A DNA stretch of 64,000 bases from a virus (Duplodnaviria; Caudoviricetes). The notes below the pieces were generated by a model. The model was not told the DNA's origin, did not search any database, and saw only the letters and a program-made list of their open reading frames with translations. Of this stretch, positions 19,266 through 39,189 are shown piece after piece; within the stretch, counting starts at the first letter, position 1; every line of letters begins with the position of its first letter. The stretch lies in IMG/VR virus record IMGVR_UViG_3300036770_005357. One strand, given 5' to 3'. Made by a program: the position numbers and the translations under genes.

Positions 19266-19304
19266 CATATGTACATATGTAAATATATGTATATGTGAAT
19301 ATGT
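19266..19304 (+). promoter_or_regulatory. Putative operator: perfect palindrome CATATGTACATATG plus five ATATGT repeats
   Basis: ATATGT at 19267, 19275, 19285, 19291 and 19299, ending immediately before the RHH start codon. Confidence 0.55.
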
Positions 19305-19305
19305 T

Positions 19306-20063: not shown

Positions 20064-20066
20064 TTT

Positions 20067-21763: not shown

Positions 21764-21765
21764 AT

Positions 21766-23100: not shown

Positions 23101-23105
23101 TTAAA

Positions 23106-23753: not shown

Positions 23754-23757
23754 ATTT

Positions 23758-24183: not shown

Positions 24184-25166
24184 ATGTATTAATAACAGGT
24201 GTTGCGGGTTTACTCGGATCTAATTTAGCTGATTATTTAATCAATAAAAATATTAATGTAATCGGTATAGACGATTTAAGTGGCGGATATATTGAAAATG
24301 TTAATGATAAGGTAAATTTTCACAAACTAAATTTAATAAACGATGTCACTCGTTTAAACGAATTATTTAATACATTCAAGATCGATTTTGTTTATCACAT
24401 GGCAGCATATGCCGCTGAAGGATTAAGTCCTTTTATACGAAATTATAATTATAATAATAATTTAATTGCTACAACAAATATTGTAAACTGTTGTGTGAAT
24501 CACAATGTAAAACGACTCATATTCACATCTACTATGGCAGTTTATGGTGAAAACACTTTGCCGTTTGATGAAAAATACTTACCAAATCCCATTGATCCAT
24601 ATGGTATTGCAAAATATGCTTGTGAACTGGATATAAAAGTTGCTGGAGAACAACATGGATTAGACTGGTGTATAATCAGACCACATAATGTTTATGGTAA
24701 AAAACAAAATATCTGGGACAAATATAGAAATGTTTTAGGTATTTGGATGAATTTACATTTAAATAATAAACCATTAACAATCTATGGGGATGGAAAACAA
24801 ACCCGAGCGTTTTCTTATATCGACGACAGCGTTGAACCTTTATGGAATGCTGCAATTTTCCCAGAGGCTTCTAAACAAATAATTAATTTAGGAGGAATTT
24901 ATGAAACAAGTATCAATGAAGCATGTGATATTTTAATTAAAGTTATGGGAGGTGGAACTAAGGTGCATCTCGAAAAAAGACATGAAGTAAAACATGCATA
25001 TTCTACTTATCAAAAATCCATAGATATTTTGAAATTTAATCATCAAACTAATTTAGAAAATGGGTTAACCGATATGTGGACTTGGGCAAAAAATCAACCA
25101 CGAAAAAATCAATTTATATGGCAAAAGTACGAAATTGAAAAAGGAATTTATAATTACTGGAAATAA
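24180..25166 (+). CDS. NAD-dependent epimerase/dehydratase (extended SDR)
   Basis: TGVAGLLGS, TSTMAVYG, YGIAK (YxxxK), RPHNVYG, TRAFSYIDD. Confidence 0.95.
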   Translation: MNVLITGVAGLLGSNLADYLINKNINVIGIDDLSGGYIENVNDKVNFHKLNLINDVTRLNELFNTFKIDFVYHMAAYAAEGLSPFIRNYNYNNNLIATTNIVNCCVNHNVKRLIFTSTMAVYGENTLPFDEKYLPNPIDPYGIAKYACELDIKVAGEQHGLDWCIIRPHNVYGKKQNIWDKYRNVLGIWMNLHLNNKPLTIYGDGKQTRAFSYIDDSVEPLWNAAIFPEASKQIINLGGIYETSINEACDILIKVMGGGTKVHLEKRHEVKHAYSTYQKSIDILKFNHQTNLENGLTDMWTWAKNQPRKNQFIWQKYEIEKGIYNYWK

Positions 25167-25176
25167 ATTTTTAGTT

Positions 25177-25806
25177 ATGAAAAAAATAAAATTTGACATT
25201 CTTACAGAATCCGAACTAATCGAATACGGCGTGTTTTCATCGGTAGATGAAACCTATGACTTTATAAAATCCAATCCTGAAAACCAACGTGGAAAAAATT
25301 CCATACAATGGATATACTTGTATATGGATGAGTTATATCAACTTGCTAAAGAATGTAATCATATTACCGAGATGGGTGTGAATGAAGTAAATAGTTCATG
25401 GGCATTCTTAAAAGCGAGGCCCAAAAAATTAGTATGTATTGATATTACATTTTCTTATGCTTATAAAAGAGTTAATTTTGAAGATCACATTTGGTTAGAA
25501 TCATTAAAAGCTTTATCTAAAAAAGAAAATGTAGATTTAACATTAATAGAAGATGATACCACTAAAATAGAAATTGAAGAAACAGATTTATTATTTATCG
25601 ATACGAAACACACTTACCAACATCTTAAAAAAGAATTAAATTTACACGCTAATAAAGTTAAAAAATATATAGCATTTCACGATACAGTTTTGTTTCCGGA
25701 GTTAAATAACGCCATCATTGAATTTTTAGAAACGAATAGAAATTGGACAATATATAAAAATATAAAAACCAATCCCGGTCTTCTAATCATAAAAAATAAT
25801 ACATGA
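25177..25806 (+). CDS. Class I SAM-dependent methyltransferase (Methyltransf_24-like)
   Basis: ITEMGV, LVCIDI, LLFIDTKHTY, YIAFHDT. Confidence 0.8.
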   Translation: MKKIKFDILTESELIEYGVFSSVDETYDFIKSNPENQRGKNSIQWIYLYMDELYQLAKECNHITEMGVNEVNSSWAFLKARPKKLVCIDITFSYAYKRVNFEDHIWLESLKALSKKENVDLTLIEDDTTKIEIEETDLLFIDTKHTYQHLKKELNLHANKVKKYIAFHDTVLFPELNNAIIEFLETNRNWTIYKNIKTNPGLLIIKNNT

Positions 25807-26465
25807 ACAACATAATCAACGAAATTTTAAATAAAAAATTGACTCTAATTGATAGAGAAAGATTTGATTGTATTATTGATTTAAAACAGCAGGTTGAATC
25901 TCATGATGGCGATATAGTAGAATGTGGAGTTTATAAAGGAGGTATGGCTATATTTTTAGCTCATCTATTTCCTTTAAAAAAAATATGGGTGGTAGATTCA
26001 TTTAGAGGATGTCAACCTTTAAAAAACGCTTTATTTAAATATGAAAAAGAAGAAAGATGGAAAGATGGAGAATTTTCAGCTTCCATAGAAGAAGTAAAAA
26101 ATAACTTCAAAAAATTTAACATTTTAGATAAGAATCGAATAATTTATTTAGAGGGTTGGGTAAAAGATACATTACCTACATGTGATATAAATAAAATATT
26201 ACTGCTTAGAGTAGATGTTGATAGTTATAGTGCAACCCGTGAAGTATTAAGATATTTATATGACAAAGTTGTTTTAAATGGCGTAGTAGTGTTCGATGAT
26301 ACATGTTGTTATGAAGCTATGGATGCTATCAAAGATTTTTTCATAATCGAAAAACAACAGCCAAATATAAATTTTTATACAGCAAAACACGAAAAAATAG
26401 ATTTATTGAACATCGACTCAAAAAATGTTCCGTGTGGTTGTTACATGATTAAAAAATATGAGTAA
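25803..26465 (+). CDS. TylF/MycF-family sugar O-methyltransferase
   Basis: GDIVECGVYKGG, VDSFRG, EGWVKDTL, LRVDVDSY, VVFDD. Confidence 0.9.
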   Translation: MNNIINEILNKKLTLIDRERFDCIIDLKQQVESHDGDIVECGVYKGGMAIFLAHLFPLKKIWVVDSFRGCQPLKNALFKYEKEERWKDGEFSASIEEVKNNFKKFNILDKNRIIYLEGWVKDTLPTCDINKILLLRVDVDSYSATREVLRYLYDKVVLNGVVVFDDTCCYEAMDAIKDFFIIEKQQPNINFYTAKHEKIDLLNIDSKNVPCGCYMIKKYE

Positions 26466-27402
26466 AAAAATTGTAATAGTTCCAGTATTTTGTGAAACTC
26501 ACTTAATTAAACTTCAAATAGATAATATATTTAATACGATTGATCCAGATATATTAATTTACAACGAAGGAATGTTTCCTCATGGTCCCGAAAGTTGTAC
26601 TAATATGGCCGGATTTAAAGAAAAATATACTCTAAATAGTGAAGGAAAACGAGGGTTTGACTATCCGGAATTACAAGAAATAATATTTGAAGCTCAAAAA
26701 AAATATAGTAATAAGAAAATTATATTAAATGAGATGGAATACGATCCAAATGAAAAATCTGCTACCAAACATTATACAAAAGCGTGTAGTAATTTTAAAG
26801 AATTAAATATTGATGTTAATGTTGGTGATTTTATATTTCCATTTGAAGGAGATGTATTTCATCTAGAGAGTGATAAAGATTCGATTGAATCGTACATGTC
26901 CCAATTAAATCCAGACACCGGTTTTAGAAGTATATGGGTAGATTTCGTACAAAATCAATATTACGCGGAACTTAAAAGTCTCAAACCATTCTTTAAAAAT
27001 CAAGAGGGTAGTACCAGAAAAATTTGCATAAAATATGGCACTCAAAAATTTTACGAATCTGTTATAGGAAATTTTGAATCTAGAAATTATGAAGCGTTGT
27101 ATTCTACAGAACTAGTAACATACCACTATCCGTGGTTTAGATTTGGAAAATATTTAGACTTAAGATACGATCAACTTAATAGACCCGATTATTATTGGAA
27201 ATACTTTTCTCAGGCTTTAAATTACATAGATGAATTAAAATACGCACGTGTATGTGCTAAGCCTGATAAACAAGGTACATACAGATATTTAAGTGCAGTA
27301 AAAATAAATCACCCAGAAGCTATAAAATCACATCCAAACTATATATCCGATATTGATATTGAAACTATTATTAACAATAACCACATCATCGATTATAAAT
27401 GA
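26458..27402 (+). CDS. GT-A-like glycosyltransferase
   Basis: IVPVFCE, IYNEG, FIFPFEGDVF, YHYPW; cluster context. Confidence 0.55.
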   Translation: MSKKIVIVPVFCETHLIKLQIDNIFNTIDPDILIYNEGMFPHGPESCTNMAGFKEKYTLNSEGKRGFDYPELQEIIFEAQKKYSNKKIILNEMEYDPNEKSATKHYTKACSNFKELNIDVNVGDFIFPFEGDVFHLESDKDSIESYMSQLNPDTGFRSIWVDFVQNQYYAELKSLKPFFKNQEGSTRKICIKYGTQKFYESVIGNFESRNYEALYSTELVTYHYPWFRFGKYLDLRYDQLNRPDYYWKYFSQALNYIDELKYARVCAKPDKQGTYRYLSAVKINHPEAIKSHPNYISDIDIETIINNNHIIDYK

Positions 27403-28409
27403 AATTACAAAATAAATATGCAATAGGCACACATGTTATGTTCTATGAAATAGAAATGTATCCGGATTTTATAAACGGATTAATAAATCTATTAGAAGCT
27501 GTAGAGAACAAAGAAAATGTCTACTTAGATTTTTGTTTTAATACATCTGAATATTTTGAAAAGATTGATAAAAACAAAATAAGTTTAGATAACTTGTTCA
27601 TTAAGTTTAATAGTGGTATAGAAAAATTAAAAGCATTGGGTTATAATAACATAAAAACTGATATTAAAAACATCAACGATGAAATTTACAATATAGCAGA
27701 TTATAGAAGAGACTTTAACAACAACTATTGCAAAAAAGTTGATTTTTTAATGTGGGGAGAAACTGACAGTTTCTTTCCAAAAGAATCATTTAAAGTACTC
27801 GAATCTTTAAAAAATTATACAGATAAAAATAATTTTCATCGTTATATCTTATCGTGGTCGGAACGGAAAATGTGGGATGAATCTTGGAAAGTTACTGAAC
27901 ATGTTGACTATGAAAATATAATTTTTGTAGATACACCGGATCAAGTTGATAATGAAAATTATGCTAAATCTCCGTTGTCCATCGAAAAAATGAATTTAAT
28001 AAATTCAAAAACTGTAGATATAGATATCAGAGTAACAAATGAACCTAAAATTGATGGCAGTTGTTTAGTAATCAGTTCAGATTTGATTAAATGTGGAGTC
28101 AACATTCCTCACAGTCTTTTGTGTAGTGGTGATGATAGTAGTTTAGGCGTAATTGCAAAACAACTTCTGGGAGATAAATTCATACAAATCGTCGTTAAAA
28201 ATATATTAAAAGTACATGCTAGAAGACATCCCAAAAAAAGAATGTATATTTTAAATGAAAACAATCCCCGTGGTTTTTGTGGTAAAGAAAAGGGTGATTG
28301 GTGGAAAATTTTACAAGATTACTCTAAATCCAATTTAAACATTTTATTAAATAATCAAAATAAATTCTATACATTTGACGATGTATTTGATAAAATAAAA
28401 AACATATGA
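27399..28409 (+). CDS. GT-A-like hypothetical glycosyltransferase
   Basis: LMWGETDSFFP, KIDGSCLVIS, LKVHARRHP; cluster context. Confidence 0.5.
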   Translation: MKLQNKYAIGTHVMFYEIEMYPDFINGLINLLEAVENKENVYLDFCFNTSEYFEKIDKNKISLDNLFIKFNSGIEKLKALGYNNIKTDIKNINDEIYNIADYRRDFNNNYCKKVDFLMWGETDSFFPKESFKVLESLKNYTDKNNFHRYILSWSERKMWDESWKVTEHVDYENIIFVDTPDQVDNENYAKSPLSIEKMNLINSKTVDIDIRVTNEPKIDGSCLVISSDLIKCGVNIPHSLLCSGDDSSLGVIAKQLLGDKFIQIVVKNILKVHARRHPKKRMYILNENNPRGFCGKEKGDWWKILQDYSKSNLNILLNNQNKFYTFDDVFDKIKNI

Positions 28410-28759
28410 AAATGCCAATATCAGAAATAGCAGATAGATATAGTATAACTCTTTTAAAAAGTGAACGAATTGAAGGAGTAAATCTAACAGATGAATTAAA
28501 TGCCTATTTACAAGAATTAAATAAGTACGAAGGTATACAAAGTTATTTAGAAAGACTGTATCAGATAAACGGAGAAATTTGGGATTTGGAATCCGACATT
28601 AGAAAAGGTAAGGAGAATATACTCGGACTTGAAGAAGTTGGTAGACGAGCAATTATGATTCGAGGTAAGAATAAGATTCGAGTTGGAATTAAAAATGAAA
28701 TGGTAGAGAAATACGAAGAAGGATTCAAAGATATAAAAATGAATCATGCTAGTGTATGA
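28406..28759 (+). CDS. DUF6165/DUF4254-like helical protein
   Basis: ISEIADRYSITLLK, LYQINGEIWDLESDIR, NKIRVGIKNE. Confidence 0.65.
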   Translation: MKMPISEIADRYSITLLKSERIEGVNLTDELNAYLQELNKYEGIQSYLERLYQINGEIWDLESDIRKGKENILGLEEVGRRAIMIRGKNKIRVGIKNEMVEKYEEGFKDIKMNHASV

Positions 28760-29697
28760 ATGTATGTTTTGTAAGCCAAAACGGTCATATAGGAAAACTA
28801 CCACGAAATTTTGAAAATTGTAGAGTAGAGTTTGCTTGGCAAATTGCATTAAACTCGGATCATCTATCTTTTGATTATATTTGTAAAAACAAAGTACAAT
28901 CGTACGACTTAGTTATAATAATTCTACCGAAGAAACTTGAATTGATTAATATCAATCAAATATTAGATATTTGTAAATCTATTGGTAAAAAAGTAACAGT
29001 AATGCAAGAAGGTCCGTGTTGGTATTACCAAGATTACAAATACGAAGATCAAGTTAATTATATAAACTTTTTGAATGAGATGGACTTTTTATTAGTCCAT
29101 AATAAAAGTGATGTAGCTTATTTTAAAGGTATATTTAAGAAACCTACATTTAATCTACAATCTTTAATGATTGAAGATACAGTTAAAAATATAATTAATA
29201 AAAATAGTGGATATCCAATCATCGGTGGTAACTTTTGTAGCTGGTACGGTGGAGTAGATAGTTATTTTGTTGCCCGTAATTTTAATAAAGATATATACAT
29301 ACCTAGTATGGGTAGGAAAATAACCAATGAGGAAAACTTCCCAAACTTAAAACATTTACCTTATATGCAATGGACGCAATGGATCCATACACTATCTCAA
29401 TTCAACATAGGTATTCATTTGATGAGAACACATGCGGCTGGTACATTTGCCCTTAATTGTGCTTATTTAGGTATACCGTGTATCGGTTATAAAGGATTGG
29501 ATACTCAACAAATATTACATCCATTATTAACGGTTGATGTAGGTAATATAGAAAAAGCAAACGAATTAGCTATACAATTAAGAGATGATGTAGATTTTTA
29601 TAATAATTGTTCTTTTCATTCTAAAGAATTATATCAAATATATTATACAGAAGAAAAGTGGTTACAAAATTGGAATAAAATTTATGAACAAATTTAA
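28756..29697 (+). CDS. GT-B-like hypothetical glycosyltransferase
   Basis: IHLMRTHAAGTFALNCAYLGIPCIG resembles the GT-B C-terminal donor-binding motif. Confidence 0.55.
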   Translation: MNVCFVSQNGHIGKLPRNFENCRVEFAWQIALNSDHLSFDYICKNKVQSYDLVIIILPKKLELININQILDICKSIGKKVTVMQEGPCWYYQDYKYEDQVNYINFLNEMDFLLVHNKSDVAYFKGIFKKPTFNLQSLMIEDTVKNIINKNSGYPIIGGNFCSWYGGVDSYFVARNFNKDIYIPSMGRKITNEENFPNLKHLPYMQWTQWIHTLSQFNIGIHLMRTHAAGTFALNCAYLGIPCIGYKGLDTQQILHPLLTVDVGNIEKANELAIQLRDDVDFYNNCSFHSKELYQIYYTEEKWLQNWNKIYEQI

Positions 29698-30487
29698 AAT
29701 TGGCATTGTTGGTTACGGATATGTTGGAAAAGCGTTTCATAATTTTTTTAAAAATCATTACGAATGTTTAATTTATGATCCAAACTTAAATACAAGCGTA
29801 ACCAAAGACGAAATCAATAAATGTAATTTAGCAGTTGTATGCGTTCCTACTCCCGAAAAACAAGATGGTAGTTGTGATACGAGTATTGTGGAAGAAACAA
29901 TTAGTTGGTTAAAAACGGAATTAATTCTTTTAAAAAGTACAGTTGAAATTGGCACAACCGATAAACTAATCAACACTTTTAATAAAGAAATTGTATTTAG
30001 TCCCGAATTTGCAGGTGAGTCAAAATATTGGACACCGGATGGATTTACAACTGATGTTAAACAAACACCATTCTTTATATTTGGTGGTAAAAAAGAACTA
30101 TGTTACAAATTAATTGAAATTTACACACCTATAACCGGTCCAAGCAAAACATACCGGGTAACAGATACAATCAGCGCGGAGATTACAAAATATGTAACAA
30201 ATACACATCTAGCTATGAAAGTTGCATATTGCAATGAAATATACGATTTGTGTGAAAAACTCGGAATAAATTATTATGAAATGAGAGATTTATGGTTATT
30301 AGATCCCCGTACTACTAAATCCCATACAGCTGTATTTGCAAATGACCGTGGATTCGGAGGAAAATGTTTTCCAAAAGACACAAAAGCTTTAGTCAAATTG
30401 GGAGATAAAGTTGATATAAATCTTTCAATTTTAAAAAGTGTGTTAAAAAGTAATGAAGAAATGATCAAAAAAAATAATGTTATTTGA
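29684..30487 (+). CDS. UDP-glucose/GDP-mannose dehydrogenase family protein, short form
   Basis: GYGYVG, VCVPTP, KSTV..GTT, SPEF, KYVTN, GFGGKCFPKD; C-terminal domain absent. Confidence 0.9.
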   Translation: MNKFKIGIVGYGYVGKAFHNFFKNHYECLIYDPNLNTSVTKDEINKCNLAVVCVPTPEKQDGSCDTSIVEETISWLKTELILLKSTVEIGTTDKLINTFNKEIVFSPEFAGESKYWTPDGFTTDVKQTPFFIFGGKKELCYKLIEIYTPITGPSKTYRVTDTISAEITKYVTNTHLAMKVAYCNEIYDLCEKLGINYYEMRDLWLLDPRTTKSHTAVFANDRGFGGKCFPKDTKALVKLGDKVDINLSILKSVLKSNEEMIKKNNVI

Positions 30488-30490
30488 ATT

Positions 30491-31294
30491 ATGATTGAAG
30501 ATAAATTTACCATATGTACTAGTTTTAATCATAGACTTTTTAAAGATCCACATCAAATTGCATATAAAAGTCTACCAAAAATTTTCAAAAATAGTAAATT
30601 TTATGTCTATCACGAAAATTCTTTTGATTCAAAAGTAGATAACATATCAATCGATTTTTCTGACAAATCGGACAATGTTATATTATACGATTTATATGAA
30701 AAATTTCCGTGGTTAGAAAATTACTTAAAAACAAGTCATTTTTCAAAACTATCTAATCATTCTAATTATTGGATAAGAAATTCGGAATATTGGTTTAGAA
30801 AAGTAGTAAGTCTTGTAGATTTTATTATGACTGCAAATGAAACCGAATATGGTATTTGGTTTGATTGTGATTCTACTGTTATCAAACCATTTGACCAAAG
30901 ATTTTTAAACCAGTTATCAAATAATGATTGGTGTTGTATTTTCAGAGAAGAGTGGGGAGTAACTATTGAAACCGGATTTCAAGTTTTTAAACTAAATGAC
31001 GACCGTGTTAAAAATTTTTGTTTAAAGTATTTAGAATATTATACAAGCGGCGATGTTTTTAAAAATGAAAAACAATATGCCGATAATTTTGTATTGGAAT
31101 CATGTTTTAAAAAATTTGACCACGATTTAAAATTAGGCCGGTTATTAACAAATAACTTTGATATTTACGAATATATCAAACACTTTAAACGCCCTTTAGG
31201 ATTAGTCCGTGAACGGAAACGATTGATTGAAAAAAAGAACGAATTTTATTTAAAAAATAACAAACTTTTTAATAAATCAATTATCAATATTTAA
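30491..31294 (+). CDS. GT-A-like hypothetical glycosyltransferase
   Basis: WFRKV..GIWFDCDS (DxD), ETGF; cluster context. Confidence 0.55.
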   Translation: MIEDKFTICTSFNHRLFKDPHQIAYKSLPKIFKNSKFYVYHENSFDSKVDNISIDFSDKSDNVILYDLYEKFPWLENYLKTSHFSKLSNHSNYWIRNSEYWFRKVVSLVDFIMTANETEYGIWFDCDSTVIKPFDQRFLNQLSNNDWCCIFREEWGVTIETGFQVFKLNDDRVKNFCLKYLEYYTSGDVFKNEKQYADNFVLESCFKKFDHDLKLGRLLTNNFDIYEYIKHFKRPLGLVRERKRLIEKKNEFYLKNNKLFNKSIINI

Positions 31295-31299
31295 TTTTT

Positions 31300-32055
31300 A
31301 TGAATGCTAATTGTATAGTAATGATCGCAATTGAAGATAATTTTTCAAAATACAACCATAAAGACTATTTTGAAATTTCAATTGAAGCTTGGAAGAAATA
31401 TTGTACTAAAAACAGTATAGATTTTATCTTAATTGATAAAAAATTAAATTCAATTCCACATTCAAAATGGACAAAACATTTTTTATTTGATTATATTGAA
31501 GATAAATATGAAAAGATAGGAATGGTAGATTTCGATACTATACCTAAGTGGGATATGCCTAATCCGTTTGAATTGTATAATGATGAATTTTGTGGAGTTA
31601 TTGATAATTGTAATTTAAATTGGTTAAACAATAGTCTAAATGCATATAAATCTACATTTCAAGAATTGGATGTCGATATAAAAATAAGCGAATACATAAA
31701 TAGCGGAGTCTTATTTTTTACAAAAAATCACAAATTTGTTTTTGAGGAAATGAAGCACTTTTATTTCAATAACAAAACGGTTTTAGATAATTGGAGTGTT
31801 TCAAACACCGGTCGAGATCAAACTATTCTAAACTTAGTTTTAAAAAAACTTAATATTAAAAAGAAATATTTTCCATATAGTTGGAACACAGTTTCTATGA
31901 TAAAAAAAGGAATGTTTTTTTATAATGATAAGTTACAAGATTTTACTCCTTTTTTTATAAAATATGGAAATATATGGCACTTTACCGGATTTTCAATTGA
32001 GGAAAGAACTAATATTATTAGACAACTTTGGTCTCAAACAAAACACTTATATTAA
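31300..32055 (+). CDS. Glycosyltransferase family 8-like
   Basis: MVDFDT, YINSGVLFF, DQTILN, WHFTG. Confidence 0.8.
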   Translation: MNANCIVMIAIEDNFSKYNHKDYFEISIEAWKKYCTKNSIDFILIDKKLNSIPHSKWTKHFLFDYIEDKYEKIGMVDFDTIPKWDMPNPFELYNDEFCGVIDNCNLNWLNNSLNAYKSTFQELDVDIKISEYINSGVLFFTKNHKFVFEEMKHFYFNNKTVLDNWSVSNTGRDQTILNLVLKKLNIKKKYFPYSWNTVSMIKKGMFFYNDKLQDFTPFFIKYGNIWHFTGFSIEERTNIIRQLWSQTKHLY

Positions 32056-32828
32056 TGAAAAACATAATATTTATCCCAGCAGTAATTTCTGACAAAGGAG
32101 AAAAAAAGTTGAGAAACACTCCTTTAATCAAAAAAATATTTGACTATAGTATACGAAGTTGGAAATACTTTGCTAATAAACATAATTGTACAGTAGTTGT
32201 TTTAGACGAACCAATATTAGATACTAATGTTACTAGTATGGCGTGGCAAAGATATTATGTTTTAGATTTATTGGAACAAAGTAATATTAAATACAATCAA
32301 GTCTTAATAGTAGATGCGGATACTATTGTACATCCAAATTGTCCTAACTTTTTTGAATTAACTGAAAACAAATATACCGGCGTACACGATGGTGTAGTAT
32401 ATGAATGGGTAATGAGAAGTGTAGAGTGTTACAGCAAATTATTATTTAACAACTATAACTTAAATGTTTGGAATTATATTAATGGTGGATTTCAAATAAT
32501 CAACGAATCACATAAAAATCATATAAATAAGTTCAAAGAATTTTATATAAATAACCGAGAGGAAATTTATCAAGTTGAATCCAATATAAAATTAGGTACA
32601 GATCAAACACCTATGAATTTCTTTCTACAAATAAATAATGTTGATACTAAAATTCTACCGTATGAATTTAACATGACGGGATTACATCTATCTGAAGGTT
32701 TGAACGAAGATTTAATTTTTACAAATTTAGGATGGGTTTATCATTTTAATGGTATACCTGATGAAACTTACGGTTCAAAAGTAGAATATTATATGAATAA
32801 AACTTTTAAAAAATTGTATGATAACTAA
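32055..32828 (+). CDS. Glycosyltransferase family 8-like (tandem paralogue)
   Basis: IVDADT, YINGGFQI, DQTPMN, YHFNG; TAATG coupling at 32053-32057. Confidence 0.8.
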   Translation: MKNIIFIPAVISDKGEKKLRNTPLIKKIFDYSIRSWKYFANKHNCTVVVLDEPILDTNVTSMAWQRYYVLDLLEQSNIKYNQVLIVDADTIVHPNCPNFFELTENKYTGVHDGVVYEWVMRSVECYSKLLFNNYNLNVWNYINGGFQIINESHKNHINKFKEFYINNREEIYQVESNIKLGTDQTPMNFFLQINNVDTKILPYEFNMTGLHLSEGLNEDLIFTNLGWVYHFNGIPDETYGSKVEYYMNKTFKKLYDN

Positions 32829-33780
32829 AAAGAACATCAATGGAAATCCAGAATTTGGTTGTGAGTTAACTTTAACCCTACCATATGCATATCATCTCCA
32901 TCTAAAGAATGAATTGGGAACCGTTAGAACTGTTAAAGGCATGAAACCATTTTATTTTTTTACAGACCAAATTGAAGAATATTATAATGATCGATCTGTA
33001 GATAATAAAGTGGCTTTAAAAGATGTACCGAATAATTGGATACACCACAATGCATTAGCAATAACCGGTAAAGATTATAGTGAACTAACAGACGAAGAAA
33101 AAAGAAATGTAAATGGTGTATTAGATTATAGAGAATGGACTCCACCTCCCATAAGGGAACATTATCTTAAAAATAATGAAATAAATATAAAAGAAAAATT
33201 CGTAGTAATATGCAATAGATTTAATCTTGAACACGGACACTTTCCATATGGATACTTTGATATTCCACTTTTACAAGATATCTTTGAATACTTTAATAAA
33301 ATTAATTACAAAGTAATTTATAAACGACCTGAAAATAATGAATTTCCAGTTGATTGTAATGAAACTAGTGATATCATAAATAAATACGGCATTAAAGCAG
33401 AAGATGCAAATGGAAATGTTGTTGATGATAAACAAATAAGCCGAATGTATGATAATGTTATCGTATTTGATGATTTACATAAAGAATATTCACATTTATC
33501 TTACAATGTTTTTCAATTACAATTATTTTCTAAATCTTCCGGTTTTATTTCGATGGGAGGTGGAAACACCCTATTGAGTTGTTATTTTAAACAACCTGTA
33601 GTTTCTTATTTTACTACTACAAAAGAAATGAGAGATAATTACTTTGGTAAAAATTCCTATTATAGGAAACTTTCAAATTGTGATTTTTATCCAATAAAAG
33701 ATCCAGAAAAAAATATACAAGAAAGAGGATATAGAGATTACACGGAATTATTAGAAACAATAAAAACAGTTTTTAAATGA
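32818..33780 (+). CDS. Hypothetical protein, possibly GT-B (GT9-like)
   Basis: PEFGCEL..LPYAY, VVICNR, FISMGGG; cluster context. Confidence 0.4.
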   Translation: MITKKNINGNPEFGCELTLTLPYAYHLHLKNELGTVRTVKGMKPFYFFTDQIEEYYNDRSVDNKVALKDVPNNWIHHNALAITGKDYSELTDEEKRNVNGVLDYREWTPPPIREHYLKNNEINIKEKFVVICNRFNLEHGHFPYGYFDIPLLQDIFEYFNKINYKVIYKRPENNEFPVDCNETSDIINKYGIKAEDANGNVVDDKQISRMYDNVIVFDDLHKEYSHLSYNVFQLQLFSKSSGFISMGGGNTLLSCYFKQPVVSYFTTTKEMRDNYFGKNSYYRKLSNCDFYPIKDPEKNIQERGYRDYTELLETIKTVFK

Positions 33781-34703
33781 AAAACAAGAAAATATTTATC
33801 ACAGGAGGAGCAGGCTTTTTAGGTAAAAATATCGTCAAAAGATATTATGACGATAATGAAATAACTGTATTTAGTCGTGATGAAGCAAAACACTATTATT
33901 TAAAAAAGCAATTTCCTAAAATAAAATGTGTTGTTGGTGATATAAGAAATTATGATCTGCTTAAAAGAAGCAGTAAAAATCACGAAGTAGGAATATTTGC
34001 TGCAAGTTTAAAGCAAATTGAAGCTGTCGATCAAAATGTTGAAGAATCGGTAAAAATTATAATTAATGGTGCCATTAATAGTAGAAGAGTCTCTGAAGAA
34101 AATAATTTTGAATCTGCATGTTTCATTTCTTCTGATAAAAGTCGATCCGCTACAACGCTTTATGGATCTATGAAATTCGTCGCAGGTGAAAGTTTTATTG
34201 TAAATTCAGACGCAAATTTCCCAAAACTAAGCACGGCTATTTACGGAAATGTATTAAACTCGACAGGTAGTATAATTCCACTAATTTGGAACGCTTTACA
34301 AAACAAATATGCATTAAAATTGTATTCTACGGAAATGACTCGATTTATGATATCAGTCGATGAGGCTATTGATTTAATAGAAGCTTCATTAAAAGTTAAT
34401 GGGTATAATGTAATACCCGAAGTAAAAAGTTTTCGTATACAAGATTTATTTGAAATATACGCCGAATTATTTGGTTTGAAATACGATGTAGATAAACCCC
34501 GAATTTCAGAAAAACTCCACGAAATCATGATATCGAGTGAAGAAATACCGCGTGTTAAAAAAGAAGATGCATATTTTTATATGCATTACAAAGAAACATA
34601 TAATCGAGTATCGTTTCCAAATAATGAATTCTCTAGTAAAGATGTATGTATAAGTAAAGAAAAACTAAACAATATTTTGAAATCCTTTAATTATTTTGAA
34701 TAA
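33777..34703 (+). CDS. Nucleotide-sugar 4,6-dehydratase (CapD/PseB/FnlA-like)
   Basis: TGGAGFLG, FSRDEAK, GDIRN, AASLKQ, SSDK, YGSMK, YGNV..STGS, MTRF. Confidence 0.9.
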   Translation: MKNKKIFITGGAGFLGKNIVKRYYDDNEITVFSRDEAKHYYLKKQFPKIKCVVGDIRNYDLLKRSSKNHEVGIFAASLKQIEAVDQNVEESVKIIINGAINSRRVSEENNFESACFISSDKSRSATTLYGSMKFVAGESFIVNSDANFPKLSTAIYGNVLNSTGSIIPLIWNALQNKYALKLYSTEMTRFMISVDEAIDLIEASLKVNGYNVIPEVKSFRIQDLFEIYAELFGLKYDVDKPRISEKLHEIMISSEEIPRVKKEDAYFYMHYKETYNRVSFPNNEFSSKDVCISKEKLNNILKSFNYFE

Positions 34704-35928
34704 TATGTATCCAGAGTATAAATTAAGAACCAGTTGTGCAATTTGTAAAAATTTAGAACTAAAAACAATTTTTGATTTCGATGAAATATCTTTAGCGGGA
34801 AATTTTCCAAAAAAAGATGAACTAAATCACTGTAAAAAATATCCTTTAAAATTAAAATATTGTACAAACTGTTCTTTGGTACAGACAGATAGTATAATTA
34901 ATTCGGATTTTTTATTCAAAGATTATCGTTACATGTCATCTATAGGTTTAAGTAAACATTTTTCTTCTGTAGCAATGTTGTACAAAGAAAAGTTCGGCTT
35001 AAATAATAACAGTAAAGTATTAGAAATAGGATCCAATGATGGAGTTTTATTAAAACCATTCATGGATTTAGGTATACCGTGTATGGGATTTGATCCATCC
35101 ATAAATATATCTAAAGTAGCACAAGAAAAGGGATGTAATGTAATTGTAGATTATTTTAGCAAAACGACGGCAACTAAATACCTAAAAGAAAATGATTATG
35201 ACATAATTTGTTCAAATAATTGTTTTGCACATATCGATGACATTCATTCTATACTGGAAGGAGTATCATATAGTTTAAAACCAGATGGACATTTCATAAT
35301 TGAAGTACATTATTTAAAAAACTTAATCGAACAGTTACAATATGACTTCGTATATCATGAACATTTATATTATTACTCGTTATCAGCTTTAAATTATTTA
35401 TTTAATTTACACGGATTATCAATTGTAGATTTTGAAGAAATCTCTATTCATTCGGGTAGTATAAGAGTATACGCTTCAAAAAATAAAAAAACAAATGAAA
35501 AGGTGGATAATCAATTAAATTTTGAAAAAAATATCGGAATGACAAATTTTGAGTATTTTGAAAATTACAGTCTCAAAGTTAAGAACCATATCATTTCTTT
35601 ACAAAATATAATAAAAAATTTAAAGAACGAAGGTTTTACTATAGCTGGGTACGGTGCATCTGGTCGAGGTAATGTGTTACTTAACATGTGTAAGTTTACT
35701 TCAAATGATATATCATTTATAATAGATGAATCACCCGAACGTTACGATCGTTATGTAGGTGGTACTGACATTCCCATATTCAATAAAAACTATTTAAACT
35801 TAAATAAACCGAATTATATTTTAATTTTGGCTTGGAACTATTCGGATATGATAATGGAAAAATTAAAATCCGAAAATTTCAAATATATAATTCCTTTTCC
35901 AACTGTAAAAATTCACTGTATTCCGTGA
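34696..35928 (+). CDS. NDP-hexose 3-C-methyltransferase
   Basis: Zn-binding CAIC..CTNC, LEIGSNDG, NNCFAH, YHEHLYYYS, GYGASGRG, LILAWNY. Confidence 0.92.
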   Translation: MNNMYPEYKLRTSCAICKNLELKTIFDFDEISLAGNFPKKDELNHCKKYPLKLKYCTNCSLVQTDSIINSDFLFKDYRYMSSIGLSKHFSSVAMLYKEKFGLNNNSKVLEIGSNDGVLLKPFMDLGIPCMGFDPSINISKVAQEKGCNVIVDYFSKTTATKYLKENDYDIICSNNCFAHIDDIHSILEGVSYSLKPDGHFIIEVHYLKNLIEQLQYDFVYHEHLYYYSLSALNYLFNLHGLSIVDFEEISIHSGSIRVYASKNKKTNEKVDNQLNFEKNIGMTNFEYFENYSLKVKNHIISLQNIIKNLKNEGFTIAGYGASGRGNVLLNMCKFTSNDISFIIDESPERYDRYVGGTDIPIFNKNYLNLNKPNYILILAWNYSDMIMEKLKSENFKYIIPFPTVKIHCIP

Positions 35929-36722
35929 AGATTTTAATACTAGGACATAAAGGAATGTTAGGACATATGGTGATGAAATATGTATCTCACCTTCAGATAA
36001 ATCATGAAATAATAGAACAACGATGGCCATCAAATGAATTCACGGAATCAATTAAAAATTCTAATTCAGACTTTTTAATAAATTGTATAGCATGTATTCC
36101 ACAAAAATATTCTACATGGAATTTATATAAAGAAACAAATATCGATTTACCGATTTTTTTAATAAAAAATTTCAACGGTAAAATAATAAATCCCACATCC
36201 GATTGTGAGTTTTCTGGAAATATAAAATTAGGCAAGTTTTACGAAAAAAACCATATGAAAGATGTTACAGATGATTATGGAATAAGTAAATCACATACAA
36301 CAAATATTTTATTAAACTATAATAATGTAAAACAAATAAGATCTTCATTAATAGGACCGGAAATAAAAGGTAAAGTGTGTTTAATGGAATGGTTTTTTAG
36401 ACAAAATAAAGATATACACGGTTATAATAACCATTATTGGAATGGTATAACTACCTTAGAATGGACAAAACAGTGCTTAAAATTAATAGAGAACTGGGAT
36501 AGATCGGATAACTTAATTCAGTTAGGTACAACTCCCATAACTAAGTATGATCTTTTATGTTTTTTAAATAAAATATTTGAATGTAAAAAAAACATAATAT
36601 CTATTAGTACGGAGTTTATTAATAGAAGTTTAAAAAGTGACTATTTAATAAAGAATATTGAAGATCAATTAATTGAGTTAAAACAGTTTTATTATGAAAA
36701 TAAGTTTCATTCAGCCGAGTAG
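35925..36722 (+). CDS. RmlD-like NDP-4-keto-6-deoxyhexose reductase
   Basis: GTG start overlapping the upstream TGA; ILGHKGMLG, INCIA, SDCEFSG, YGISK, IRSSLIGPE, WNGITT. Confidence 0.85.
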   Translation: MKILILGHKGMLGHMVMKYVSHLQINHEIIEQRWPSNEFTESIKNSNSDFLINCIACIPQKYSTWNLYKETNIDLPIFLIKNFNGKIINPTSDCEFSGNIKLGKFYEKNHMKDVTDDYGISKSHTTNILLNYNNVKQIRSSLIGPEIKGKVCLMEWFFRQNKDIHGYNNHYWNGITTLEWTKQCLKLIENWDRSDNLIQLGTTPITKYDLLCFLNKIFECKKNIISISTEFINRSLKSDYLIKNIEDQLIELKQFYYENKFHSAE

Positions 36723-37896
36723 AAATAACCTAAAATATCTTAAATGGAGTTATGAAGCTATTCGTAAAAATCTAAGCCATAAAGAACACGAAATATGTGT
36801 AGCAGACGATTTTAGTAATGATGGTACAGAGGATTGGTGTAAAGAAACCGCAGCAAAAGATCCAAATTTTAAATATATTCGTAATAACGGTCCAACTCGG
36901 TTGGGACATACTATTTTATATGATCGTTTAATCAATGAAGTTGCAACTAATGATGTGGTAATGATCTACCACGCAGATATGTACGCATGTCCTAATTTTG
37001 ATAAATATGTTGAAAAATATATTCAACCAGGCACAATTGTTAGTTTAACTCGTATAGAACCACCTCTACATCCACCAGGACCAGAAAAAATTTGTGTTGG
37101 ATTTGGTCAAGAGCCAGAAGAGTTTAAGGAACAAGAATTCTTAAAATGGTTCAAAGATACCAGTCTATCCCGTAAAGATAAAACCACAGAGGGTATTTTT
37201 GCGCCGTGGGCCCTTTATAAGAAGGATTTCCAATCTATAGGAGGTCATGATGAACTATATGCACCTCAAAGTAAAGAAGACAGTGATATATTTAATCGTT
37301 TCTTACTTAATGGTTATAAGTTTATTCAGACATGGGAAGGTTGTGTATATCATATGACTTGTAGAGGCAGTAGATATAATCCAACTATCACCACTGTAGG
37401 TAAAGAAAGTGACGAATGGTTAGCTCAAAACAATCGTAGTGCTAGAAACTTCATTCGTAAGTGGGGTCACTTTGTTAAACACAATGATACAATGAAACCT
37501 ATCGTACCTAAACGATATGATATTGGATTCGTTGTTAAGAATTGTGATGCTTATAAATTAGCTTTGTTAGAACCGTGGTGTGATACAATCTATACCGATG
37601 TACCATATGATCAATACATCAATATTGAACAAAAAAATACTAAGTTTGATTTAGATAAGAAACTCAAACGATATGAAGATCAAAAGATTAATGATGTTAT
37701 CATAGAATTTGATGCTAATAAATTAACCAACGAAAGTTTTGAATTTTTTAACTCGTTACAACTTATACTCGAAGATAGTGGTCAAATAGGTGATTCTGAA
37801 TTTGATATATTTAAATTAAAAATAAAAAATTTAAGTGATTATAGTAAAAACTTAATAAGTATTAACGATAATTGGTACAAAAATAAATTATTGTAA
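36694..37896 (+). CDS. Glycosyltransferase family 2
   Basis: SFIQPSRN, ADDFSNDGT, YHADM, GGHDE, EDSD, VYHMTCRG. Confidence 0.9.
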   Translation: MKISFIQPSRNNLKYLKWSYEAIRKNLSHKEHEICVADDFSNDGTEDWCKETAAKDPNFKYIRNNGPTRLGHTILYDRLINEVATNDVVMIYHADMYACPNFDKYVEKYIQPGTIVSLTRIEPPLHPPGPEKICVGFGQEPEEFKEQEFLKWFKDTSLSRKDKTTEGIFAPWALYKKDFQSIGGHDELYAPQSKEDSDIFNRFLLNGYKFIQTWEGCVYHMTCRGSRYNPTITTVGKESDEWLAQNNRSARNFIRKWGHFVKHNDTMKPIVPKRYDIGFVVKNCDAYKLALLEPWCDTIYTDVPYDQYINIEQKNTKFDLDKKLKRYEDQKINDVIIEFDANKLTNESFEFFNSLQLILEDSGQIGDSEFDIFKLKIKNLSDYSKNLISINDNWYKNKLL

Positions 37897-37909
37897 CTAA
37901 ACAAATATC

Positions 37910-38500
37910 ATGAACATAGAAAAAATTCTATCGATATTACCAGATAAATTTGCTAGTAAACGAACCACCTCAAAAAAATTTAAAACGGATCTTTACAACT
38001 TTTTTAACGAAGAAAAATATAAAGACTTTAAATGTGCTGAATTAGGCATTTTTAATGGCGATTCTACACTTTTATTATGTAATTTATTTAAACATGTAAT
38101 TGGAATAGAATATTCACAAAAACAAATTGATATAGCTACAAATTTTTTAAAAAAGAATAATTTAAATAATTTTGATTTTTTACTTCACGATTTATATAAT
38201 CGAAAATTTCCATATGTCGGTGAAATAGATGTTTTTATGATTGACGCTGTACATACGTATGAATGTGTTAAAATAGACACATTTAATTGTATAAATAGTA
38301 AAAAAGAATCTTCGATTGAAAACAAAAAATTATACTTTATATACGACGATTATGGTGCATTTCCCCCAGTTAAACAAGCAGTCGATGAACTAATTTCATC
38401 GAATGTTTTATCCGTAGTTAAAAAAATAGGATATATGCCTGGAGAAAATTTTGTAAACAAATTATTTGATTATGAAGGCATAATTTGTATAGAAACATAA
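37910..38500 (+). CDS. Class I SAM-dependent methyltransferase
   Basis: AELGIFNGDST, GIEYS, FMIDAVHTY, IYDDYG. Confidence 0.85.
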   Translation: MNIEKILSILPDKFASKRTTSKKFKTDLYNFFNEEKYKDFKCAELGIFNGDSTLLLCNLFKHVIGIEYSQKQIDIATNFLKKNNLNNFDFLLHDLYNRKFPYVGEIDVFMIDAVHTYECVKIDTFNCINSKKESSIENKKLYFIYDDYGAFPPVKQAVDELISSNVLSVVKKIGYMPGENFVNKLFDYEGIICIET

Positions 38501-38515
38501 AACCAATTTAAGAAA

Positions 38516-38911
38516 ATGACTTTATTTCACATGATAAATTACTTTATAATAGATTTTTCGTTACTATGTTTTATTTCTTTTATATTAATAGTGTGGTTTG
38601 AAAGTGATATAGTACAAACCTTTGCTAAATTAACAAAGACTCGGAATTTACTTAAGATACCGGAGTTTGAAAAATATAAACTTGAAGAAGACATAATGTC
38701 CAATTACGCTAACTTTTTATATGCAAAATATCCTGGCTATCTAACGAAATTGATTAGTTGTCCAATTTGTTTATGTTTTTGGACAAATTTAATTCTTGGT
38801 AATGTACTTTTATATTATTTAGGATTTCCCCAACTATATTTTTTAATTATTTTTTCTATAAACTATATTTTTAGTTTATTCTTTTATCTAATTATTAGAA
38901 AATTATTATGA
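38516..38911 (+). CDS. Membrane protein with CPxC..W motif (DUF1360-like)
   Basis: Three hydrophobic segments and LISCPICLCFW. Confidence 0.6.
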   Translation: MTLFHMINYFIIDFSLLCFISFILIVWFESDIVQTFAKLTKTRNLLKIPEFEKYKLEEDIMSNYANFLYAKYPGYLTKLISCPICLCFWTNLILGNVLLYYLGFPQLYFLIIFSINYIFSLFFYLIIRKLL

Positions 38912-39189
38912 CTGTAGGTGGTTATCAGGACTTTATAAATAAATTTGGCGCTGACAATATACCATCAATAGATAATTTAAAAAATTGTTTATTGATACTA
39001 GGAAAAATTTGCAATTGTCAAAAACAAAGAAAACATTTAAAATCGGAAGAATGTAATAAAGTTTATATTAACTTGATAAATTCTACAATTTCAAACATGG
39101 TAGATTATTTAAAAACAAAAACTACCGATGATGAAATAATATTTTATTACAACGGTAGTCATGAAATTAAAAGAATTAAATTGCGTTAA
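38908..39189 (+). CDS. Small hypothetical protein
   Basis: 93 aa, ATGA-coupled to the upstream gene, Cys-containing (CNC). Confidence 0.55.
   Translation: MTVGGYQDFINKFGADNIPSIDNLKNCLLILGKICNCQKQRKHLKSEECNKVYINLINSTISNMVDYLKTKTTDDEIIFYYNGSHEIKRIKLR

What the first reader, a model, noticed from the sequence alone, without database searches (positions are those of the whole stretch)
33777..36722. Compact three-gene route to a branched 6-deoxy-3-C-methyl sugar
Overlapping genes encode a 4,6-dehydratase (CapD/PseB-type), an NDP-hexose 3-C-methyltransferase and an RmlD-like 4-ketoreductase. That is the established logic for branched sugars such as virenose or nogalose. The dehydratase family often uses UDP-GlcNAc, so the product might be an unusual C-methylated amino-deoxysugar. 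A GT2 and an O-methyltransferase follow directly and could install and cap it.
Basis: partly seen in the sequence, partly recalled or inferred. Interest (0 to 1): 0.7.

Follow-up and report, generated by a model that had tools for sequence, protein, structure and literature searches.

The report
Phage pathway for C-methylated deoxy-amino sugar
A large uncultured phage carries three tightly packed enzyme genes that most likely turn the common building block UDP-GlcNAc into a rare methyl-branched 6-deoxy amino sugar; the same untested gene set recurs in many other uncultured viruses and in some bacteria.

Summary
Window 33777-36722 holds three intact, contiguous genes.
- g1 is a Polysacc_synt_2 4,6-dehydratase. 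Its closest solved relative is Megavirus Mg534, a UDP-GlcNAc 4,6-dehydratase/5-epimerase.
- g2 is a TylC3/MtmC/TcaB9-type sugar C-methyltransferase with all catalytic and zinc residues.
- g3 is a short, divergent RmlD-like reductase. Its real start is GTG 35925, not 35832.

The window lies in a 173-kb phage record, inside a ~20-kb soluble glycan gene island.

The trio is not a chance neighbourhood. It is syntenic in two related IMG/VR contigs. A variant 95-97% identical, without indels, occurs in an independent metagenome. The families recur together in huge phages, a giant-virus MAG, Terrimonas ferruginea DSM 30193 and other bacteria. On a C-methyltransferase tree the window's clade is linked to Polysacc_synt_2 dehydratases. 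Other clades sit beside RmlB or neither.

Best reading (about 0.55): UDP-GlcNAc to a 4-keto-6-deoxy-HexNAc, then C-methylation (C3 likelier than C5), then 4-reduction. I found no description of such a sugar or route.

The claimed GT2/O-methyltransferase coupling is weak.

The scan has noted phage branched-sugar pathways before on other DNA (e1-991196, e1-5377305, e1-5347645), with other dehydratase types.

Rating: new variant of a known kind, moderate interest.

The parts
33777..34703 (+). g1: Polysacc_synt_2 (PseB/Mg534-type) NDP-HexNAc 4,6-dehydratase, 308 aa
   Evidence: PF02719 at 134 bits. Best PDB hits: 4TQG = Megavirus Mg534 at 9e-41, then H. pylori FlaA1/PseB 2GN4 at 5e-32, then FnlA, CapE and PglF. 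TGGAGFLG, D120-K121 and Y129-x3-K133 align with the catalytic residues of 4TQG and 2GN4. Below the PseB equivalog cut-off (156 against 408 bits). Identity: 81% to L003, 65-69% to L001/L006, 68% to Terrimonas ferruginea.
34705..35928 (+). g2: NDP-4-keto-sugar C-methyltransferase (TylC3/MtmC/TcaB9 family), 407 aa; alternative TTG start at 34696
   Evidence: PF08421 + PF13489 + PF08484. PDB: MtmC 4RV9 at 5e-75, TcaB9 at 4e-52, KijD1 at 7e-49. C14/C17/C56/C59, H179, Y220, E222 and H223 (410-aa numbering) align with the TcaB9 zinc and active-site residues. 74% identical in L003/L004.
35925..36722 (+). g3: short divergent RmlD-like NAD(P)H 4-ketoreductase, 265 aa; GTG start overlaps the g2 stop (GTGA)
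   Evidence: GxxGxxG (G7, G10, G13) and the S92/Y118/K122 triad lie in conserved columns of the family. The profile hits RmlD 1VL0 at 1e-10. AF2 pLDDT is 95 and the best folds are RmlD chains.
32818..33780 (+). Flanking ORF of 320 aa with no Pfam or PHROG family; predicted GT-B fold (probable glycosyltransferase); not part of the conserved trio
   Evidence: No Pfam or PHROG hit. More than 600 homologues without a Pfam family. AF2 pLDDT 91. Best folds are GT9 heptosyltransferases (WaaC, TibC), TagF and UDP-GlcNAc 2-epimerases, at TM about 0.46. Absent at this place in L003.
36694..37896 (+). GT2-family glycosyltransferase, 400 aa, overlapping the g3 end by 29 nt; candidate transferase, link to the trio unproven
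   Evidence: PF00535. 87% identical in L003. 59-61% identical copies lie near the C-methyltransferase in L100, L104, L106 and L107. A homologue also sits in Flavobacterium phage immuto behind a different sugar pathway.
37910..38500 (+). 196-aa class-I methyltransferase-like protein; role unknown
   Evidence: Only sub-threshold hits to PF13649, PF13578 and PF13847. No homologue at this position in L003.

Best explanation
The three genes form one nucleotide-sugar tailoring pathway that the phage expresses in the host cytoplasm.

Step 1 (inferred from homology). g1 takes host UDP-GlcNAc and performs NAD(P)-dependent 4,6-dehydration, probably with inversion at C5 as in Mg534 and PseB. The product is a UDP-2-acetamido-2,6-dideoxy-hexos-4-ulose.

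Step 2 (inferred). g2 uses the acidity next to the 4-keto group. A His/Glu/Tyr site removes the C3 proton, and the enolate attacks the methyl of SAM. This gives a 3-C-methyl tertiary alcohol. C5 is the less likely alternative.

Step 3 (inferred). g3 reduces the 4-keto group with NAD(P)H. The product is a UDP-2-acetamido-2,6-dideoxy-3-C-methyl-hexose of undetermined stereochemistry.

The sugar is then used by one or more of the many soluble glycosyltransferases of the surrounding ~20-kb island. The acceptor is most likely cytoplasmic, such as virion proteins. The phage record holds no lipid-carrier priming enzyme or flippase, and the island holds no membrane protein apart from one small ORF.

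Shown here: gene integrity, family membership, conserved catalytic residues, and conserved co-occurrence. Not shown: any substrate, product, regiochemistry or acceptor.
For: Enzyme identities and intact active sites.

Tight packing: TAAtATG between g1 and g2, GTGA between g2 and g3, within an array whose gaps are at most 15 nt.

Conservation and recurrence:
- Same order and content in IMG/VR contigs L003/L004, at 81/74/57% identity.
- A variant 95-97% identical, without indels, in a metagenome of another study.
- The three families recur together in huge phage LR745206, in huge IMG/VR contigs and a GVMAG contig, in Terrimonas ferruginea DSM 30193 in the same order with g1 68% identical, and in bacterial capsule-type loci L007 and L008.

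C-methyltransferase tree of 83 rows:
- The window's 9-row clade (support 100) is entirely Polysacc_synt_2-positive.
- The enclosing 32-row clade has 21 positive and 5 negative rows.
- The other 51 rows hold 1 positive.
- The actinomycete (dTDP-type) clade is entirely negative.
- Loci without Polysacc_synt_2 often have a true RmlB beside the C-methyltransferase instead.

Six viral loci keep g1 next to g2 with no g3-like hit anywhere in the locus. This argues that g1 feeds g2.

The phage record has no RmlA and no real RmlB.

Mg534 plus the 270-aa RmlD-like Mg535 are a proven viral UDP-GlcNAc to UDP-L-RhaNAc route (PMC9614988, PMC10117803). That gives the frame into which a C-methyltransferase is inserted here. 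Relative phage L001 has g1 and g3 without g2.
Against: No biochemical data exist for any Polysacc_synt_2-coupled C-methyltransferase.

To my knowledge, all characterised family members use dTDP sugars, and the ones solved in the PDB carry no 2-acetamido group.

In Terrimonas the trio lies directly behind RmlB and RmlA genes. There, a dTDP-4-keto-6-deoxyglucose substrate is equally possible.

L001 shows that g1 and g3 can work as a pair without the methyltransferase.

g3 is only 29-37% identical to the reductases of the Chitinophagales loci, so the module is a mosaic.

The tree is a quick LG+G4 tree, and related rows share neighbourhoods by descent.

The record is about 73% complete, so missing genes are weak evidence.

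C3 against C5 is not resolved.
Confidence: 0.55

Rival explanations
1. Two separate routes share the operon. g1 and g3 make an unbranched UDP-6-deoxy-L-HexNAc (Mg534/Mg535-like, e.g. L-RhaNAc). The C-methyltransferase acts on a different 4-keto sugar: host dTDP-4-keto-6-deoxy-glucose, or the product of the 328-aa SDR at 24180-25166.
For: L001 has g1 and g3 homologues (65% and 58% identical) and no C-methyltransferase. The Terrimonas locus has RmlB and RmlA immediately upstream of the trio. All solved C-methyltransferases of the family are annotated with dTDP-sugar pathways (own knowledge for the substrates). The island holds another extended SDR with weak dehydratase-like scores.
Against: The C-methyltransferase clade tracks Polysacc_synt_2 genes, not RmlB. 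This holds across phages, a giant-virus MAG, bacteria and archaea. Six viral loci keep g1 adjacent to g2 with no g3-like hit in the locus. There is no RmlA or RmlB in the phage record or within 8 kb in L003, L005-L008 and L011. g2 sits between g1 and g3 with coupled stops and starts. A separately methylated sugar would need its own 4-reductase.
Confidence: 0.2
2. Same single pathway from UDP-GlcNAc, but the methyl group goes on C5, as NovU does in noviose synthesis. The product is a 5-C-methyl (gem-dimethyl) 6-deoxy-HexNAc.
For: C5 is also alpha to the 4-keto group, and g1-type enzymes already deprotonate it. NovU/CloU-type 5-C-methyltransferases belong to the same family (own knowledge). No test here separates the two positions.
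Against: The closest solved relatives (MtmC, TcaB9, KijD1) are all 3-C-methyltransferases. Most characterised members act at C3 (own knowledge).
Confidence: 0.12
3. g1 acts on UDP-glucose or another non-acetamido NDP-hexose. The product is then a neutral 6-deoxy-3-C-methyl-hexose, evalose- or virenose-like, as the finding's title suggests.
For: Substrate specificity cannot be read from sequence. g1 scores far below the PseB and FnlA equivalog cut-offs. Some viral sugar enzymes are nucleotide-promiscuous (R141 and L780, PMC9614988).
Against: The matched Polysacc_synt_2 structures whose substrate is named in the PDB titles or the cited papers (Mg534, FlaA1/PseB, FnlA) act on UDP-GlcNAc. CapE, Pen/CapD and PglF are UDP-GlcNAc enzymes by my own knowledge (PMC9614988). 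The UDP-Glc dehydratase R141 (6VLO) belongs to another SDR branch and matches g1 only at 7.5e-5 over the Rossmann region.
Confidence: 0.08
4. The sugar serves DNA hypermodification (glycosylated bases), not a glycan.
For: The island lies among replication and nucleotide-metabolism genes: a dUTPase-like ORF, dNMP kinase, clamp loader, RNR. All its proteins are soluble.
Against: About ten glycosyltransferase-like ORFs, several methyltransferases and a variable cassette structure resemble polysaccharide or oligosaccharide loci. Bacterial copies of the trio sit in Wza/Wzc/Wzx capsule-type loci. No hydroxymethylase or base-modifying enzyme was seen in the island.
Confidence: 0.03

Closest known systems
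Megavirus chilensis Mg534/Mg535 route to UDP-L-RhaNAc (PDB 4TQG; PMC9614988, PMC10117803)
   Same: It is virus-encoded. The first enzyme is the closest solved relative of g1 (9e-41, full length, same D-K and Y-x3-K residues). The second enzyme is a short (270-aa) RmlD-like NADPH reductase, like g3 (265 aa). UDP-GlcNAc is the start. The genes lie in a clade-variable viral glycan cluster used to decorate the virion.
   Different: It has no C-methyltransferase and the product is unbranched. Mg535 also epimerises C3. Homology of g3 to Mg535 itself could not be tested because the sequence was not retrievable. The host is an amoeba, not a bacterium.
Actinomycete dTDP-sugar 3-C-methylation: MtmC (D-mycarose), TylC3, TcaB9 (tetronitrose), KijD1
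   Same: g2 has the same three-domain C-methyltransferase, with the zinc cysteines and the Tyr/Glu/His site conserved. The logic is the same: 4,6-dehydratase, methylation next to the 4-keto group, 4-ketoreduction.
   Different: Those use dTDP sugars made by RmlA and RmlB, mostly 2-deoxy or 3-amino substrates, for antibiotics. On the tree the actinomycete clade is separate and never neighbours a Polysacc_synt_2 gene. Identity to g2 is only about 30-38%.
PseB / FnlA / CapE / PglF pathways (UDP-GlcNAc 4,6-dehydratases of bacterial glycans)
   Same: Same Pfam family and catalytic residues as g1. The same 4-keto-6-deoxy-HexNAc intermediate is expected.
   Different: Their downstream partners are aminotransferases, FnlB/CapF-type reductases or 2-epimerases, never a C-methyltransferase. 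g1 is far below the PseB and FnlA equivalog cut-offs.
Proposed GDP-virenose pathway of Coxiella burnetii (PMC3539893, PMC3204966) and NovU/noviose
   Same: A C-methylated 6-deoxy sugar destined for a surface glycan. The outline of dehydratase, C-methyltransferase and reductase is the same.
   Different: These use GDP-mannose or dTDP routes with Gmd/RmlB-type dehydratases and make neutral sugars. The virenose route is itself only an in-silico proposal. NovU methylates C5.

Membership tests
Polysacc_synt_2 (PF02719) UDP-GlcNAc 4,6-dehydratases | Full-length match to the family model above the curated cut-off | tested here: met
   134.4 bits against 20.2; residues 6-267 on model positions 1-289 of 293.
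Polysacc_synt_2 (PF02719) UDP-GlcNAc 4,6-dehydratases | N-terminal GxxGxxG nucleotide fold, Asp-Lys acid/base pair and Tyr-x3-Lys | tested here: met
   TGGAGFLG, D120-K121 and Y129/K133 align with FlaA1 (sTDK ... YgatK) and with Mg534 Y140/K144 (PMC9614988).
PseB equivalog (TIGR03589) / FnlA equivalog (TIGR04130) | Score above the equivalog cut-off | tested here: not met
   156 bits against 407.75 for PseB, and 104 against 730 for FnlA. g1 is a family member, not an orthologue of either.
Polysacc_synt_2 (PF02719) UDP-GlcNAc 4,6-dehydratases | Activity on UDP-GlcNAc; inverting or retaining at C5 | not testable with these tools
   Needs an enzyme assay.
NDP-hexose C-methyltransferases (TylC3/TcaB9/MtmC; PF08421 + class I MT + PF08484) | Three-domain architecture above the cut-offs | tested here: met
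   PF08421 at 45.5 against 31.3; PF13489 at 73.7 against 27; PF08484 at 132.2 against 23.5.
NDP-hexose C-methyltransferases (TylC3/TcaB9/MtmC; PF08421 + class I MT + PF08484) | Four zinc-binding cysteines and the His/Tyr/Glu/His active-site residues of TcaB9 | tested here: met
   C14, C17, C56, C59, H179, Y220, E222 and H223 align with the corresponding TcaB9 positions. All are invariant in 17 relatives. The roles of the residues come from my own knowledge of the TcaB9 mutant work.
NDP-hexose C-methyltransferases (TylC3/TcaB9/MtmC; PF08421 + class I MT + PF08484) | Methylation at C3 of a 4-keto sugar; nucleotide specificity | not testable with these tools
   The closest solved enzymes are 3-C-methyltransferases. 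5-C enzymes (NovU) could not be put on the tree.
RmlD-type 4-ketoreductases (PF04321) | Match to the family model above the cut-off | tested here: not met
   No PF04321 hit for g3 itself; only PF01370 at E 0.006 and 16.5 bits against 20.9. No NCBIfam hit.
RmlD-type 4-ketoreductases (PF04321) | Homology detectable by profile and fold; Rossmann motif and Ser/Thr-Tyr-Lys triad | tested here: met
   Most homologues carry PF04321. The profile hits RmlD 1VL0 at 1e-10 and 2GGS at 3e-9. In the AF2 model the top folds are RmlD at TM 0.76-0.83. G7/G10/G13, Y118 and K122 are invariant; position 92 is Thr in at least 90% of the family and Ser in the window.
Mg535-type 3-epimerase/4-reductase | Sequence homology to Mg535 and C3-epimerase residues | not tested
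   The Mg535 sequence could not be retrieved. The only likeness is size (265 against 270 aa), the RmlD-like nature, and partnership with an Mg534-like enzyme.

The most novel reading that the evidence does not exclude
The module makes a monosaccharide class not yet described in nature: a UDP-activated 2-acetamido-2,6-dideoxy-C-methyl-hexose. A wide, uncultured set of phages, huge phages and at least one giant-virus lineage uses it, together with Bacteroidota, CPR and DPANN cells. In the phage it is assembled by soluble glycosyltransferases onto virion proteins in the cytoplasm. C-methyl and O-methyl groups have the same mass, so such sugars may already have been misread in MS-only glycan surveys.
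Probability: 0.35. Interest if true: 0.7.

Novelty: new variant of a known kind. Interest (0 to 1): 0.55.

Why it matters
C-branched sugars are rare in glycans. A 2023 review-C-methyl sugars 'quite uncommon' (PMC9912281). To my knowledge their biosynthesis is known only from dTDP-based (and proposed GDP-based) routes.

This module couples the C-methyltransferase family to the UDP-GlcNAc branch of deoxysugar chemistry. It predicts a new nucleotide sugar that three small soluble enzymes could make in one pot.

The module recurs in dozens of uncultured viruses and in a cultured bacterium, Terrimonas ferruginea DSM 30193. It is therefore directly testable.

It would add a new building block to viral and bacterial glycobiology. 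It would add a variable 'serotype-like' cassette to the biology of large phages. It would also give glyco-engineering a new enzyme.

Tried and rejected
- Pfam, NCBIfam, PHROGs and phmmer-against-PDB on g3 alone gave nothing significant. A family profile and a fold model were needed.
- The promoter and terminator scan of 18000-37999 was no richer than shuffles (140 against 136.7; 6 against 5.5). It says nothing about transcription units.
- No RNA holder was listed among the sequencing runs, so expression is untested.
- Literature searches joining C-methyltransferase terms with UDP-GlcNAc, PseB or phage terms found no relevant paper. The library is partial, so this is weak evidence of novelty.
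- PHROGs found no family for the unnamed island ORFs, apart from one marginal match of unknown function.
- Host assignment failed. The closest cellular g1 and g2 are in Chitinophagales. The closest GT2 DNA is in a Flavobacterium phage. The closest RecA is in a Microcystis phage.
- The idea that the downstream GT2 is dedicated to the new sugar was weakened by phage immuto.
- A loss of the putative epimerase Cys (position 94) in C-methyltransferase-linked reductases was considered. The window keeps Cys and L003 has Gly, so there is no pattern.
- The DNA-modification reading was considered and set low.
- No complex-prediction job was run, because no binding claim is made.

Full report
Setting.
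The window is bases 92041-156040 of a single 173,066-bp virus record. The record has 32% G+C and six tRNA genes. CheckV estimates it about 73% complete. Around the finding lie phage replication genes: clamp-loader subunit, dNMP kinase, UvdE, RNR, DnaB-like helicase, RecA and a 5'-3' exonuclease. The finding sits near the 3' end of a + strand array of about 25 ORFs (19518-39189) with gaps of at most 15 nt. The array encodes GT4, GT2 and unassigned glycosyltransferase-like proteins, a GalE-like SDR, a truncated NDP-sugar dehydrogenase-like protein, a TylF-type O-methyltransferase and other methyltransferases.

The three genes.
- g1 (33777-34703, 308 aa) is a full-length Polysacc_synt_2 protein. 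Its best solved relative is 4TQG (9e-41, residues 3-305). [quoted passage not shown] Next come FlaA1/PseB, FnlA, CapE, a Bacillus CapD and PglF. The Rossmann motif, D120-K121 and Y129/K133 align with the catalytic residues. g1 is well below the PseB and FnlA equivalog cut-offs, so it is a family member and not an orthologue of either.
- g2 (34705-35928) has the complete zinc-domain, SAM-domain and C-terminal-domain architecture of sugar C-methyltransferases. It matches MtmC (5e-75), TcaB9 (4e-52) and KijD1 (7e-49) over its whole length. The four cysteines and the His/Tyr/Glu/His site are conserved and invariant among 17 relatives.
- g3 is more divergent. It has no Pfam, NCBIfam, PHROG or single-sequence PDB hit. 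Its abundant ~260-aa homologues mostly carry PF04321. A 26-sequence profile finds RmlD structures at 1e-10. A pLDDT-95 model superposes best on RmlD enzymes at TM 0.76-0.83. GxxGxxG and the Ser/Thr-Tyr-Lys triad are conserved. Its true start is GTG 35925, overlapping the g2 stop as GTGA. g2's ATG follows the g1 stop by one base.

Is the grouping meaningful?
- Two IMG/VR contigs (L003, L004) carry the same three genes in the same order, at 81, 74 and 57% identity, followed by the same GT2 at 87%.
- Contigs of a run from a different study cover the trio at about 95-97% identity with no insertions or deletions.
- Among 50,697 deposited phage records, only the 635-kb uncultured phage LR745206 holds all three families, within 7 kb.
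- A wider scan of IMG/VR found 30 loci with C-methyltransferase relatives. Of the 23 at 44% identity or more, 16 have a g1-type gene within 8 kb, mostly directly adjacent, and about half also have a g3-type gene. A contig labelled as a giant-virus MAG (L113) has all three.
- In cellular genomes the trio stands in the same order in Terrimonas ferruginea DSM 30193 (g1 68% identical), in a Sphingobacteriales MAG and in a Chitinophagales MAG. It also occurs, in another order, in the bacterial capsule-type locus L007 (with Wza, Wzz, Wzx and EpsG genes) and in the polysaccharide gene cluster L008.

Which dehydratase feeds the methyltransferase?
On a quick maximum-likelihood tree of 83 C-methyltransferases:
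- the window falls in a 9-member clade (support 100), every member of which has a Polysacc_synt_2 gene nearby;
- the enclosing 32-member clade (support 100) has 21 positive and 5 negative rows;
- the remaining 51 rows include one positive;
- the actinomycete clade is entirely negative.

Loci without Polysacc_synt_2 frequently carry a genuine RmlB next to the methyltransferase (L029, L038, L041, L050, L053, L054, L061). The phage record has no RmlA and only a 26%-identical GalE-like SDR. Six viral loci keep g1 beside g2 with no g3-like hit in the locus.

I read this as a C-methyltransferase lineage specialised on the product of Polysacc_synt_2 dehydratases, that is, on a UDP-4-keto-6-deoxy-HexNAc.

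Caveats:
- The tree is a quick one, and kin share neighbourhoods.
- In Terrimonas, RmlB and RmlA lie directly upstream.
- The related phage contig L001 has g1 and g3 without any C-methyltransferase. The two can therefore act as a Mg534/Mg535-like pair.

Mechanism proposed.
UDP-GlcNAc is converted by g1 to a UDP-2-acetamido-2,6-dideoxy-hexos-4-ulose, L-arabino if the enzyme inverts as Mg534 does. g2 deprotonates next to the keto group and transfers a methyl from SAM, by analogy with the closest solved enzymes at C3. g3 reduces C4. All three steps are inferred from homology and context. None is shown. C5 methylation, a neutral-sugar substrate and a split-pathway reading remain as rivals.

Fate of the sugar.
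- None of the island proteins from 19518 to 38500 has a transmembrane-like segment. Only the 131-aa ORF 38516-38911 does.
- The record has no Bac_transf or WecA-type priming transferase and no Wzx-type flippase. The control genomes do have them.
- This fits cytoplasmic glycosylation of a soluble acceptor such as virion proteins, as in giant viruses (PMC9614988). It is context, not proof, and the record is incomplete.

The upstream ORF 32818-33780 has no family. It folds confidently (pLDDT 91) as a GT-B protein nearest to GT9 heptosyltransferases, including the protein-glycosylating TibC.

The downstream GT2 is the most conserved gene of the region. It accompanies the module in several diverged viral loci. 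Its homologue in the cultured Flavobacterium phage immuto follows an aminotransferase, acetyltransferase and SDR route instead. It therefore cannot be called specific for the C-methyl sugar.

The 196-aa methyltransferase-like protein is below all Pfam cut-offs and is absent from the closest relatives.

Taken together, the window, L003, L001 and immuto suggest an island that behaves like an O-antigen locus. It has a conserved frame with exchangeable sugar-tailoring cassettes.

Comparison with what is known.
The enzymes belong to known families, and the dehydratase, C-methyltransferase, reductase logic is textbook for dTDP sugars of antibiotics. The closest viral precedent is the Mg534/Mg535 route to UDP-L-RhaNAc.

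What is different here:
- the insertion of a C-methyltransferase into a UDP-GlcNAc-type route;
- the predicted product, a C-methylated 6-deoxy-HexNAc, for which I found no description (the library is partial);
- its carriage by phages.

Earlier notes of this scan report other phage branched-sugar pathways on other DNA: a fused SDR-cupin-C-methyltransferase, yersiniose-like routes, and fibre-linked clusters. Those are unchecked leads and involve other dehydratase types.

Verdict.
This is a new variant of a known kind, of moderate interest and directly testable.

Noticed in passing
window 29684-30487 (+): A 267-aa NDP-sugar dehydrogenase-like ORF. It covers only model positions 67-298 of 413. 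The start of the N-terminal Rossmann fold and the whole C-terminal domain are missing. It is conserved at 83% identity in L003, but there it lies at a different place, after the GT2. It could be a truncated enzyme or a repurposed domain.
   Followed up: partly
window 32818-33780 (+): A 320-aa ORF with no Pfam or PHROG family but more than 600 metagenomic homologues. The AF2 model (pLDDT 91) is a GT-B fold nearest to GT9 heptosyltransferases (WaaC, the protein-glycosylating TibC), TagF and UDP-GlcNAc 2-epimerases. It looks like an unnamed glycosyltransferase family common in aquatic viral contigs.
   Followed up: partly
window 36694-37896 (+): The GT2 gene is the most conserved of the region: 87% amino-acid identity in L003, against 57-81% for its neighbours. 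In four metagenomes it draws far more contigs at 85-90% likeness than the trio does. It has a homologue in the cultured Flavobacterium phage immuto (immuto26A_102).
   Followed up: partly
L006 2604-3800 and 4991-6205: A 27.6-kb metagenomic contig carries two C-methyltransferase paralogues in one cluster, behind a g1-type dehydratase and a g3-type reductase. This may mean double C-methylation or two branched sugars.
   Followed up: no
L113 (IMG/VR contig labelled GVMAG), 7206-12007: A contig labelled as a giant-virus MAG holds a g3-like reductase, a C-methyltransferase (33% identical) and a g1-like dehydratase within 5 kb.
   Followed up: no
window 21029-21763 (+): A 244-aa ORF inside the glycan island. 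Only its last ~40 residues match the dUTPase family. It sits oddly between two GT4-like genes.
   Followed up: no
window 31300-32055 and 32028-32828 (+): Two adjacent paralogous ORFs, about 30% identical to each other through their L003 counterparts. Neither has a family, and both are conserved in L003 at 70-80%.
   Followed up: no
window 38516-38911 (+): The only ORF of the island with transmembrane-like segments (three). It is 131 aa, has no family, and is 61% identical in L003.
   Followed up: no
window 44501-45685 (-): A lone DruA (Druantia) family gene in the phage (PF14236 at 1e-22). No other Druantia genes were seen among the neighbours scanned.
   Followed up: no
L001 10001-13717: A related phage contig has the g1 and g3 homologues without a C-methyltransferase. 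It also has a 381-aa extended SDR, and lies next to RecA, DnaB and ThyX. The glycan island is thus a variable cassette in this phage group.
   Followed up: partly
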